Of a stretch of 64,000 bases of DNA, positions 47,801-50,800 are shown in pieces. Origin of the DNA: Escherichia coli (GTDB lineage: Bacteria; Pseudomonadota; Gammaproteobacteria; Enterobacterales; Enterobacteriaceae). A program made the position numbers. How positions within the stretch are numbered: position 1 is the first letter of the stretch; each line of letters starts with the position of its first letter. The stretch lies in NCBI RefSeq assembly GCF_030013205.1, contig NZ_CP122648.1; one strand, given 5' to 3'.

Positions 47801-50800
47801 GTCAAAGGTAGTGAAGATCTTCACGCCGGAGAGATCTTTTACCTTATCGCCCAGTTTTGCCTGCAGCTCCTGACGCACCAGTTGCATAAAGGCTGGCTGA
47901 GGAGAGATCACCCCACCGCGCGGCTGAACACCCAGCGGACGTGCACTCAACATGTCATAGAGTTCTTGATCAATAATCTGTTGCTGTTGCAGCAAACGTA
48001 GCACCAGGTTACGTCGCTCCAGCGCCAGTTTCGGGTTACGCCACGGGTTGTAGATGGACGCCCCTTTCACCATACCCACCAACAGCGCCTGCTGATCGAG
48101 GCTCAATTCTTCTACCGGACGACCAAAGTAATACAAGCTCGCCAGCGGGAAGCCGCGGATTTCGTTGTCGCCGCTCTGACCGAGATACACCTCGTTCATA
48201 TACAGCTCAAGAATACGGTCTTTGCTGTAACGCGCGTCCATGATCAGCGCCATGTAAGCTTCGTTCGCTTTACGCCAGTAAGAGCGCTCGCTGGAGAGGA
48301 ACAGGTTTTTCACCAGCTGTTGCGTCAGCGTACTCGCACCCTGCACCGTGCGTCCGGCGGTCAGGTTTGCCAGCACCGCACGTCCGATGGAGTAGAGACT
48401 GATCCCATCATGCTCGTAGAAATGGCGGTCTTCTGTCGCCAGCAAAGTATCCACCAGCAAATCAGGGAAACCACTGCGCGGCACAAACAAACGCTGCTCA
48501 CCGTTTGGCGAGGAGATCATGGTGATCAGACGCGGATCAAGACGGAAGAAACCGAACTGACGGTTGTTCTCCATATTGACGATCGTCGCCAGATGATCGC
48601 CATCAAAGGTCAGACGCGCACGCACCTGCCCTTCTTTACTGTCCGGGAAATCAAACGGACGGCGAATCATCTCAATGCTGTTGGCCTGCACGGTAAATTC
48701 GCCGGGACGGGTCATTTTCGACACCTGACGATACTGTGTTGCCTCCAGCAGCTTCACCATCTCGTTCTTGCTGATGGTCATGTCTGGCTCAAGGTTGACC
48801 ATTCGGCCATAAACTGCCGCGGGCAATTGCCAGACCTTGCCATCAATACGGCTGCGAATTTTTTGATCGAGATAAACGCCGTAAATGGCGATCAGCACGG
48901 CAAAAACGATAGCCAGTTTTAGCAGCAGCCATAGCCAGCCGCGTTTGCCACGAGGCTTACGCCCTTTGCCTTTGCCCTTACCTTTGCGCGGCATCGGTTC
49001 TTCATCCTCATAGTCATCATAATCGTCGTAATCGTCATCTTCGTAACGACGACGGCTTACCTTTTGTTTGACCGGACGCGTCGGTTTCCCTTTGCGTCCA
49101 ATTGGCTCGCGGTCATTCCCGGCCATGCTTTTTCTCCGCAATATTCAGGCGCAAAAGCCCGATTTTCTGTTCTTCTGTTGCAAGACAGAAGAAGATATCT
49201 CTCAAATTTGCTTTGGTCTTCACGAATACTTTTTCGTCCGTCGCGTCGGTGCAGTATTTGCCGGGTCGTCCGGCCAGACATGTTTGGGATAACGCCCTTT
49301 CATCTCCTTTTGCACCTCACGATACGCCCCTTTCCAGAAGGCCCCCAAATCACGCGTGATTTGCAGCGGCCTTTGGGCGGGTGAAAGCAACTCCAGCACC
49401 AGCGGCACGCGCCCCTGAGCGATCGTCGGATTGGTGGCCTCACCAAACATCTCCTGCATTCTCACCGCCAGCGCGGGCGGATTATCTTCATGATAACGAA
49501 TGGCGATCCGGCTTCCCGTCGGCACAGTGTAATGCGCAGGCAATTCACTATCCAGACGTTGCTGCATTCCCCAATCAAGTAATCCGCGTAGTGCCTGATA
49601 AATGTCGAGTGATTTCAGGCCGCGTAGTGAATGTACGCCAGTCATATGTGGCAGCAGCCACGTTTCCAGCGCCGCCAATAAACTTTCATCATCAACCGCT
49701 GGCCAGTCATATTCCGGCAACCACTTTGCGGCGCATAACAAACGCAAGCGTAGCTGTTCCGCTTCCGCCGTCCAGTTGAGCACGCTTAAACCTTTATCAC
49801 GAATGCCGTTAAGCATCGCCTGATGCAACTCGTCTTCCGAGGGTTTCGCCAGTGGCTGCACTTTCACCGTCAACTGACCGATTTGCAGCCGACGCCAGGC
49901 TTTCAGCGTACCTTGCGCGTCATCCCACTCCACAGTGTCAGACTGCTGTACCAGCTGCGGGCAGCGTTGTACTAACTCATCAATATCGACCGGCAGCGCC
50001 AGTAAAATCCGCGCATCCGGCGAGGCGCTGCCCTGCAATAATAACGGTGCGATCAACCATTCGTGGCGGCTTAGCGCATCGTCGGCATCGAGCATCGCCC
50101 CCATGCCGTTTGCCAGTTGATAGCGTCCATCTTGCCCACGGCGACGAGCAATGCGATCGGCATACGCCCCGGCAAGTAGCGGCGCGATAAGAGAACTGTC
50201 TGCCTCACCGCCGCGTACGTTTAAACGTTTTAACAGTTGCTGACTACGTTGCTGCCAGGCGGGTTGATTGCGCGAAAACGCCACGCCCAGGTCACAATTG
50301 CCCACCCGTGGCGGCTCTTCGAGAATAGCGGCAATTTTTGCAGCGGTAGCAGCTTCGTCGTCGCTCTTCGCTCTCACCACCATTGCTGCTAAACGCGGAT
50401 CGTTACCCAGCGCCGCCATTTTTTGCCCCTGCGCACTAAGCCGTTCACCGTCCAGCGCCCCCAGCATCCGTAACAGGCGTTTCGCGGCCAGTAAATTCAC
50501 TGCTGGCGGTTGATCCAGCCAGCTCATCTGCGCCGGATCGCTGCATCCCCATTGCAGTAATTCCATCAGCAAACCGGAAAGATCGCTTTGTAAGATCTCC
50601 GGTTCACTTTGCGCGGCAGCGCGTTCTGCTTGTTCTTTGGCGATTAAATGCAGGCAGATACCCGGCTCCAGACGCCCGGCACGCTGCGTCATGGATGCCT
50701 GACTAACGCGTTGAGTAATCAACCGCGTAAGCCCCGTGCGCGGATCAAAACGCGCCACACGCTCCTGGGCACAATCCACCACCAGACGAATACCTTCGAT

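What the first reader, a model, noticed from the sequence alone, without database searches (positions are those of the whole stretch)
50660..50695. hrpB helicase motif VI appears shortened by three codons (QRAGR-LEPG instead of QRxGRxGR)
DEAH/RHA helicases carry motif VI as Q-R-x-G-R-x-G-R, with the arginines acting as the ATPase arginine finger. Here the minus-strand coding sequence reads CAG CGT GCC GGG CGT CTG GAG (Q R A G R L E), one GRAGR unit short. With the GTG start used, the protein is 806 aa versus the 809 aa I recall for K-12 HrpB, which fits an in-frame 9-bp loss of one copy of a short direct repeat (cgtgccggg) by slippage. If real, this could inactivate or change HrpB ATPase activity.
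Basis: partly seen in the sequence, partly recalled or inferred. Interest (0 to 1): 0.6.

Follow-up and report, generated by a model that had tools for sequence, protein, structure and literature searches.

The report
Rare in-frame deletion in HrpB active site
This E. coli strain carries a real but rare 9-base in-frame deletion that removes one of two repeated "AGR" units from the ATP-hydrolysis motif of the dispensable RNA-dependent ATPase HrpB; the same repeat has slipped independently in a few other strains, and the change probably cripples the enzyme's ATPase without obvious cost.

Summary
The minus-strand hrpB gene (49220-51640, GTG start, 806 aa) reads Q319-R-A-G-R-L-E-P-G (50686-50660). 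K-12 HrpB (PDB 6heg/6eud, 809 aa) reads QRAGRAGRLEPG, and the 3-residue gap maps exactly there.

The window's gene is identical to E. coli ETEC4079. It differs from an intact allele carried by more than 20 other genomes by this 9-bp deletion alone, with no other mismatch. The parent sequence holds an 8-bp direct repeat, GCCGGGCG, at a 9-bp period.

Among 5,426 complete E. coli genomes, three carry one copy, each on a different allelic background. Two carry three copies (QRAGRAGRAGR). All five differ from a common intact allele only by the indel, so this is a recurrent slippage site with recent events only.

The alleles are not artefacts. The exact window protein is on 3 contigs, including a metagenome scaffold, and another one-copy protein is on 14-19 contigs.

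None of 268 HrpB cluster representatives covering the motif varies in motif VI length, and seven of its eight positions are invariant.

The likely result, inferred and not tested, is loss or severe reduction of RNA-stimulated NTPase. This would be tolerated because hrpB mutants show no laboratory phenotype. Interest is modest.

The parts
49220..51640 (-). hrpB coding sequence, GTG start, 806 aa (intact alleles are 809 aa)
   Evidence: ORF and translation. Identical to ETEC4079 hrpB WP_282842964.1. NCBIfam HrpB equivalogs NF008662 at 1493 bits (cut-off 1053) and TIGR01970 at 1257 bits. End-to-end match to PDB 6heg/6eud.
50660..50686 (-). Shortened motif VI region Q319-R-A-G-R-L-E-P-G (family pattern is QRxGRxGRxxxG)
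   Evidence: The gap against K-12 HrpB falls here. This is the only difference from the strain 7/2 allele.
50673..50680 (-). The single remaining copy of the 8-bp direct repeat GCCGGGCG. The deletion junction lies somewhere within or next to it and cannot be placed more exactly.
   Evidence: Alignment of the window with the parent (7/2) and K-12, CGT GCC GGG CGC GCC GGG CGT -> CGT GCC GGG CGT.
51539..51553 (-). Motif I (Walker A) G-A-G-K-S, intact
   Evidence: G32 and K33 are invariant in the family alignment.
51263..51274 (-). Motif II D-E-F-H (DExH box), intact
   Evidence: D123, E124 and H126 are invariant.
51167..51175 (-). Motif III S-A-T, intact
   Evidence: A157 and T158 are invariant.
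50807..50827 (-). Motif V T-N-I-A-E-T-S, intact
   Evidence: A275 is invariant, and T272, E276 and S278 are nearly invariant.
51714..52244 (+). thpR (RNA 2',3'-cyclic phosphodiesterase), the divergent upstream neighbour. Context only.
   Evidence: Annotation of the identical ETEC4079 region, with coordinates converted to the window. The ORF end at 52244 matches.
46595..49126 (-). mrcB (PBP1b), the downstream neighbour. Context only.
   Evidence: Annotation of ETEC4079 and the ORF list.

Best explanation
This is a genuine, evolutionarily recent allele of hrpB. Replication slippage between two copies of an 8-bp direct repeat (GCCGGGCG, 9 bp apart) removed 9 bp in frame. That repeat exists because motif VI, Q-R-A-G-R-A-G-R, is itself a peptide repeat written in GC-rich codons. 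The deletion takes one AGR unit, about one helical turn, out of the RecA2 helix that carries motif VI. The chain can now place either Q319 and R323, or the two arginines, against ATP, but not all three residues that homologues use to hold the attacking water and the beta/gamma phosphates. The most likely result is an HrpB that still folds and still binds RNA through its intact motifs Ia-V and accessory domains, but has lost most or all of its RNA-stimulated NTPase. The allele survives and is transmitted because hrpB is dispensable under ordinary conditions. It does not persist over long evolutionary time, and it cannot revert by slippage because the repeat is gone. Shown: the deletion, its uniqueness within the gene, its recurrence, its independent sightings, and the invariance of the motif. 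Inferred: the slippage mechanism, the helical-turn geometry, the loss of ATPase, and the tolerance.
For: Deletion and parent: the window's hrpB has 0 mismatches and 9 gap columns against the strain 7/2 allele, and more than 20 genomes carry that intact allele at 99.6%.

Recurrence: 873.10 is one-copy on a K-12-like allele (1 mismatch from K-12). CS5L is one-copy on a third allele, 87-98 mismatches from the others. 21310 and AREA_R485 are three-copy, differ from each other by 17 SNPs, and have different nearest intact alleles. Each variant is 99.6% identical to an intact allele, i.e. differs by the indel only.

Not an artefact: the exact protein is on 3 contigs under separate accessions, including ENA metagenome scaffold ERZ28618550, whose gene differs by 1 synonymous base. 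The 873.10-type protein is on 14-19 contigs.

Constraint: 146 of 148 diverse representatives have QRxGRxGRxxxG and the other 2 are substitutions at the same length. All 120 close representatives have QRAGRAGRLxPG. Q319, R320, G322, R323, A324, G325, R326 and G330 are 8 of only 48 invariant columns.

Geometry: AlphaFold2 models give helix 314-325 in the parent and 314-321 in the variant. Mean pLDDT for residues 321-330 falls from 93 to 87, and for the motif V block (271-280) from 88 to 79.

Role of the residues: in ctPrp43, Q428 and R435 hold the attacking water and R432 and R435 contact the phosphates (PMC5262380). R435 is the arginine finger bridging the two RecA domains (PMC10082070). Prp43 Q423 is required for hydrolysis (PMC5473145). 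In E. coli DbpA, alanine at the motif VI arginines leaves <0.5-12% of ATPase (PMC2248767).

Tolerance: the E. coli hrpB mutant has no phenotype in the assays reported (PMC7237152).
Against: No biochemical or phenotypic data exist for this allele. AlphaFold2 is insensitive to small destabilising changes, and its coordinates could not be inspected, so the geometry rests on secondary-structure strings and block-averaged pLDDT only. The 873.10-type allele, seen on 14-19 contigs, shows that a one-copy motif is compatible with clonal spread. That would also fit a neutral change with activity retained. HrpB's cellular role is unknown, so 'tolerated loss of function' cannot be separated from 'function not needed in these niches'. 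Reads were not available to confirm the base calls in ETEC4079 itself.
Confidence: 0.7

Rival explanations
1. Functionally near-neutral polymorphism. The helix re-registers so that Q319, R320 and R323 suffice, or R323 takes over as the finger. HrpB keeps useful NTPase activity and the allele simply drifts.
For: One-copy alleles persist long enough to be sampled 3 and 14-19 times. The AlphaFold2 model of the variant stays confident overall, with mean pLDDT 95.1 against 95.5. The HrpB family score drops by only 16 bits.
Against: Motif length is invariant in 268 representatives, and 7 of the 8 motif positions are invariant at 43% mean identity. All five events are tip events, with no deep clade. 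Single substitutions of homologous residues abolish activity in related enzymes.
Confidence: 0.15
2. Null allele through instability. Removing a helical turn in the RecA2 core misfolds the domain, the protein is degraded, and the allele behaves as a simple knockout rather than as an ATPase-dead RNA binder.
For: The deletion lies inside a predicted helix packed between two core strands, not in a free loop. Confidence also falls at the neighbouring motif V block, 88 to 79.
Against: The predicted fold is otherwise unchanged, and the drop in confidence is small. AlphaFold2 cannot judge stability, so this rival remains open.
Confidence: 0.1
3. Adaptive or contingency-type switch. Copy number 1/2/3 of the AGR unit is a selected, recurrent way of tuning or switching off HrpB in particular niches.
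For: There are five independent events at one site, in both directions. The three one-copy genomes come from livestock or meat (pig, beef, chicken) and the two three-copy genomes from humans. This is n=5 and anecdotal.
Against: Only 5 of 5,426 genomes are affected. Two repeat units is far below the tract lengths of true contingency loci. The deletion destroys the repeat, so it cannot switch back by slippage. No clade enrichment was seen.
Confidence: 0.05
4. Sequencing or assembly artefact in the source genome.
For: Reads could not be examined. GC-rich short repeats can be troublesome for some platforms.
Against: The same exact protein is recorded under several accessions on 3 contigs, including an independent metagenome scaffold that differs by one synonymous base. 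Clean loss of exactly one repeat unit in frame also occurs in two unrelated assemblies.
Confidence: 0.02

Closest known systems
E. coli K-12 HrpB (PDB 6heg, 6eud), a DEAH/RHA-type RNA-dependent NTPase
   Same: The same gene by descent, 806 of 809 residues alignable end to end. Same neighbours thpR and mrcB. Same motifs I, II (DEFH), III and V. Same HrpB-specific CON_HrpB and HrpB_C domains. Passes both NCBIfam HrpB equivalog models.
   Different: Motif VI is QRAGR-LEPG instead of QRAGRAGRLEPG. There are also about 18 ordinary allelic substitutions (79 nucleotide differences) that the intact parent allele of strain 7/2 shares.
Engineered motif VI (arginine-finger or glutamine) point mutants of SF2 RNA helicases: DbpA R331A, Prp43 Q423, and Prp16/Prp22/Prp43 alleles
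   Same: The same motif and the same catalytic residues are affected. The expected outcome is loss of ATPase with RNA binding retained (PMC2248767; PMC5473145; PMC4227776).
   Different: Those are laboratory single substitutions, often studied on plasmids beside a wild-type copy, where they act as dominant negatives. This is a natural three-residue deletion in the only chromosomal copy, and it also shortens the helix.
Naturally degenerate helicase-like pseudoenzymes, such as DHX32 with non-conserved motif VI residues and the Brr2 C-terminal cassette
   Same: An SF2 core that keeps its fold and RNA or partner binding while its motif VI departs from the catalytic consensus (PMC7988694; bioRxiv 10.1101/758698 abstract).
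   Different: Those are old, fixed, conserved states with acquired scaffold roles. This is a tip-of-the-tree allele with no sign of fixation or compensation, and has 0 other changes from its parent.
Slipped-strand in-frame indels at short tandem repeats in bacterial coding sequences
   Same: Gain and loss of exactly one repeat unit, recurrent on independent backgrounds.
   Different: There are only two units of 9 bp and the frequency is very low (5 of 5,426). The change is in frame and is not reversible once the repeat is down to one copy, so this is not a phase-variable contingency locus.

Membership tests
HrpB orthologous group (by descent) | Full-length match above the curated cut-off of the NCBIfam equivalog models | tested here: met
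   NF008662 at 1493 bits (cut-off 1053) and TIGR01970 at 1257 bits (cut-off 546). The intact parent scores 1509 and 1273.
HrpB orthologous group (by descent) | HrpB-specific C-terminal extension (CON_HrpB and HrpB_C domains) | tested here: met
   PF24473 and PF08482 are recorded for this exact protein.
HrpB orthologous group (by descent) | Conserved chromosomal position: sfsA, thpR, then divergent hrpB, then mrcB | tested here: met
   The gene order is the same in ETEC4079 (identical to the window), K-12 J53 and strain 7/2.
Catalytically competent DEAH/RHA NTPase (SF2) | Motif I GxGKS/T, motif II DExH, motif III SAT, motif V TNIAETS | tested here: met
   GAGKS at residue 30, DEFH at 123, SAT at 156 and TNIAETS at 272. 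The key residues are invariant in the family alignment.
Catalytically competent DEAH/RHA NTPase (SF2) | Motif VI Q-R-x-G-R-x-G-R (extended form QRxGRxGRxxxG) | tested here: not met
   The window reads QRAGRLEPG. 146 of 148 diverse representatives and 120 of 120 close representatives have the full pattern, and none differs in length. The allele therefore should not be filed as a standard active DEAH/RHA enzyme.
Catalytically competent DEAH/RHA NTPase (SF2) | RNA-stimulated NTP hydrolysis | not testable with these tools
   This needs purified protein. [quoted passage not shown]
Phase-variable contingency locus (simple-sequence repeat switch) | A long repeat tract giving frequent, reversible changes seen at appreciable population frequency | tested here: not met
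   There are two units of 9 bp (imperfect in the parent), 5 variants in 5,426 genomes, and the one-copy state has no repeat left.

The most novel reading that the evidence does not exclude
The AGR copy number in motif VI (1, 2 or 3) is a recurrent, selectable in-frame switch. It converts HrpB from an RNA-dependent NTPase into an ATPase-dead RNA clamp (one copy) or a retuned enzyme (three copies), with a niche-specific benefit, for example in livestock-associated lineages. That would give the first natural handle on the unknown cellular role of HrpB.
Probability: 0.05. Interest if true: 0.6.

Novelty: new variant of a known kind. Interest (0 to 1): 0.3.

Why it matters
HrpB is a structurally solved bacterial DEAH/RHA protein whose cellular function is still unknown, and whose deletion gives no phenotype in E. 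coli or P. aeruginosa (PMC7237152). Natural alleles that remove part of the arginine-finger motif, on backgrounds otherwise identical to intact alleles, provide ready-made isogenic-like pairs for asking what the NTPase does. Examples are ETEC4079 against strain 7/2-type genomes, and 873.10 against K-12. The case also makes a general point. The QRxGRxGR motif is a peptide repeat, so with GC-rich codons it creates a DNA repeat that makes the catalytic centre of the enzyme a small slippage hot spot. In practice, automatic annotation names the product 'ATP-dependent helicase HrpB' with no flag, although its catalytic signature is incomplete. Beyond that, this is an ordinary rare, probably mildly deleterious or neutral, loss-of-function-type polymorphism in a dispensable gene.

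Tried and rejected
1. Assembly error was rejected. The exact protein recurs on 3 contigs, including an independent metagenome scaffold, and a sister one-copy allele is on 14-19 contigs.

2. I considered that the 3-aa length difference might lie elsewhere, or that the 18 amino-acid differences from K-12 might signal decay of the gene. Both were rejected. The gap maps to motif VI. All substitutions are shared with the intact strain 7/2 allele, which shows 0 mismatches, so a dN/dS analysis for relaxed selection was pointless.

3. A single origin spread by recombination was rejected. The distinguishing SNPs within about 20-30 bp on either side of the site follow each strain's own background.

4. 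I looked for any HrpB lineage with a fixed short or long motif VI and found none in 148 + 120 representatives. The two non-canonical representatives are single substitutions at the same length.

5. AlphaFold2 modelling of the variant and the parent gave only secondary-structure strings and block pLDDT. I treat this as weak support only.

6. The primary mutagenesis and structure papers were not held: Schwer and Meszaros 2000, Gross and Shuman 1998, and Pietrzyk-Brzezinska 2018. Their content is cited only through papers that were held. My recollection of the NPH-II 'QRxGRxGRxxxG' study (Gross and Shuman 1996) is memory, not a tool result.

7. Literature searches for ETEC4079 and for hrpB slippage returned nothing.

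8. The 156-column gap between the metagenome locus and ETEC4079 is a run of N in the scaffold, not biology.

9. I did not scan metagenome or species-genome collections for the junction. A numerator without a denominator would have added little.

Full report

Yes. The minus strand of the window at 50686..50660 reads CAG CGT GCC GGG CGT CTG GAG CCG GGT, which is Q319-R-A-G-R-L-E-P-G. It lies in an uninterrupted ORF. From the GTG at 51640 to the stop at 49220 the ORF encodes 806 residues.

The protein aligns end to end with both solved E. coli HrpB structures (6heg, 6eud; 809 residues). The alignment has one gap of three residues, exactly at QRA---GRLEPG.

The gene is base-for-base identical to hrpB of E. 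coli ETEC4079 (pig faeces, Belgium). There PGAP annotates the same 806-aa CDS as 'ATP-dependent helicase HrpB', WP_282842964.1.

**2. What happened at the DNA level?**

A whole-gene search of 5,426 complete E. coli genomes found more than 20 genomes at 99.6% identity. Direct alignment with one of them, strain 7/2, gives 0 mismatches and 9 gap columns. The deletion is therefore the only change from a common, intact allele.

All the amino-acid differences from K-12 (79 nucleotide differences) are ordinary allelic variation shared with that intact parent. The gene shows no sign of decay.

The parent reads CAG CGT GCC GGG CGC GCC GGG CGT CTG. This contains an 8-bp direct repeat, GCCGGGCG, at a 9-bp period. 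Removing any 9-bp frame within it gives the window's sequence. That is a minor correction.

**3. Is it a one-off?**

No. A 60-base junction query and a 78-base query from the expanded allele found five length variants among the 5,426 genomes.
- **One copy:** ETEC4079, 873.10 (beef, Uruguay) and CS5L (chicken, China).
- **Three copies (QRAGRAGRAGR, 812 aa):** 21310 and AREA_R485, both human.

The events are independent:
- The three one-copy genes sit on alleles 78-97 nucleotides apart.
- 873.10 is one mismatch from K-12.
- Each variant is 99.6% identical to some intact allele, i.e. differs by the indel only.
- The two three-copy genes differ by 17 SNPs and have different nearest intact relatives.
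- SNPs within 20-30 bp of the site follow each strain's own background, so import by recombination is unlikely.

That makes five independent events, in both directions, each of exactly one unit and each at a tip of the tree. It is the pattern expected from slipped-strand mispairing at a short tandem repeat, with the products not lasting over long times.

**4. Is it an artefact?**

Very unlikely.
- The exact 806-aa protein is recorded under several accessions on three contigs.
- One of those is a 143-kb scaffold from an ENA metagenome assembly, whose hrpB differs by one synonymous base.
- The 873.10-type one-copy protein is on 14-19 contigs.

Reads could not be examined.

**5. How constrained is the motif?**

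A search of 1.84 billion cluster representatives returned 150 HrpB-family proteins, 41-53% identical to the query apart from a few partial sequences.
- 148 of them cover the region.
- 146 carry QRxGRxGRxxxG.
- Two carry one substitution each at the same length, QRANRAGR and QCRGRAGR.

All 120 closer representatives (Escherichia and Citrobacter) carry QRAGRAGRLxPG.

In an 82-sequence alignment with 43% mean column identity, Q319, R320, G322, R323, A324, G325, R326 and G330 are invariant. Only 48 columns in the whole protein are invariant. No lineage sampled has a fixed shorter or longer motif.

**6. What does the deletion probably do?**

This section is inference. In the homologue ctPrp43 the equivalent residues have these roles:
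- Q428 and R435 hold the attacking water, and R432 and R435 bind the phosphates (PMC5262380).
- R435 is the arginine finger that bridges RecA2 to the ATP bound on RecA1 (PMC10082070).
- The motif swings onto the gamma-phosphate when RNA binds, and the glutamine is required for hydrolysis (PMC5473145).

These map to Q319, R323 and R326 of HrpB.

AlphaFold2 models built on the same 81 homologues give the following:

| Model | Helix | Loop | Strand | Mean pLDDT 321-330 | Mean pLDDT 271-280 (motif V) |
|---|---|---|---|---|---|
| Intact parent | 314-325 | 326-329 | 330-334 | 93 | 88 |
| Variant | 314-321 | 322-326 | 327-331 | 87 | 79 |

Three residues is close to one helical turn, so the model absorbs the loss by dropping the last turn.
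- If the N-terminal register holds, R326 is replaced by a proline.
- If the C-terminal register holds, Q319 and R320 are replaced by Ser and Met.

Either way one of the three catalytic contacts is missing.

In E. coli DbpA, alanine at the motif VI arginines leaves <0.5-12% of ATPase while RNA is still bound. The same paper summarises equivalent results for Prp16, Prp22 and Prp43 (PMC2248767; see also PMC4227776).

I therefore expect a folded, RNA-binding HrpB with little or no RNA-stimulated NTPase. I could not inspect coordinates, and AlphaFold2 cannot judge stability. A null by misfolding therefore remains a live rival, and so does a tolerated hypomorph.

**7. Why is it tolerated?**

[quoted passage not shown] E. 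coli and P. aeruginosa hrpB mutants show no phenotype for growth, stress, motility, biofilm or virulence in the assays reported (PMC7237152). A loss-of-function allele can therefore spread clonally for a while. This fits the 3 and 14-19 sightings, and the absence of deep clades and of any such state in other species.

**8. Comparison with what is known.**

By descent this is hrpB:
- It passes both NCBIfam HrpB equivalog models, 1493 and 1257 bits, far above their cut-offs.
- It carries the HrpB-specific CON_HrpB and HrpB_C domains.
- It has conserved neighbours.

As an enzyme class it fails one defining signature of DEAH/RHA NTPases, motif VI, while keeping motifs I, II (DEFH), III and V. It should be described as an hrpB allele with an incomplete catalytic motif, not as a standard active helicase.

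It is not a contingency locus. There are only two repeat units, the frequency is 5 in 5,426, and the deletion is irreversible.

The closest functional analogues are engineered arginine-finger and glutamine mutants. More loosely, it resembles natural pseudo-helicases such as DHX32 (PMC7988694). Those are ancient, fixed states.

**9. Novelty and score.**

The allele is in public databases but I found no description of it or of the repeat polymorphism. I rate it a new variant of a known kind.

For a specialist it is not surprising. Its main value is as a natural reagent for a protein of unknown function, and as a caution for annotation. Interest is 0.3.

The most novel reading not excluded is that the copy-number changes are selected switches that create an ATPase-dead RNA clamp. 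I give that about 5%.

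Noticed in passing
window about 49127-49219 (hrpB-mrcB intergenic); compare L002:4588-4782: K-12 carries an extra GC-rich, partly palindromic insert of about 100 bp (GGTTGGTTTTCTCCCTCTCCCTGTGGGAGAGGGCCGGGGTGAGGGC...) between hrpB and mrcB. It is absent from the window and from strain 7/2, and the hrpB stop codon context also differs. It looks like a small intergenic repeat element, and I did not identify it.
   Followed up: partly
window about 49030-49045 (mrcB 5' region, minus strand); L001:4675 onward against L002:4783 onward: The neighbouring gene mrcB has its own in-frame repeat-length difference. 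Its acidic N-terminal tract is [12 protein letters not shown] in the window and [13 protein letters not shown] in K-12, a one-GAT difference that accounts for 843 against 844 aa.
   Followed up: partly
window 51641-51685 (minus strand, upstream of the hrpB GTG): An in-frame ATG 15 codons upstream gives an 821-aa ORF. Some database entries for intact alleles use the corresponding longer form (824 aa) instead of 809 aa. Start-site annotation is therefore inconsistent across records, while the solved structures use the 809-aa form.
   Followed up: no
L003 (strain 21310) and L009 (strain AREA_R485), locus positions about 1516-1560: The same repeat has expanded to three copies (QRAGRAGRAGR, 812 aa) in two human isolates on alleles 17 SNPs apart. 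This form keeps a full QRxGRxGR and adds AGR before the following strand, so it may be better tolerated than the deletion.
   Followed up: partly
Source records of the five variant genomes: All three one-copy genomes come from livestock or meat (pig, beef trimmings, chicken), and both three-copy genomes come from humans. With n=5 this may well be chance.
   Followed up: no
L007:about 4170-4260 (metagenome scaffold ERZ28618550 scaffold_83): The metagenome scaffold with the same hrpB allele has a run of N inside mrcB. This explains the truncated 619-aa mrcB gene call there and is a scaffolding artefact, not biology.
   Followed up: yes
P0183-P0185 (E. coli, 764 aa) and P0182 (E. albertii, 805 aa): Other HrpB length variants exist in close relatives, at 764, 805 and 813 aa, while keeping an intact motif VI. 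I did not examine where those differences lie. They may be alternative starts, truncations or other indels.
   Followed up: no
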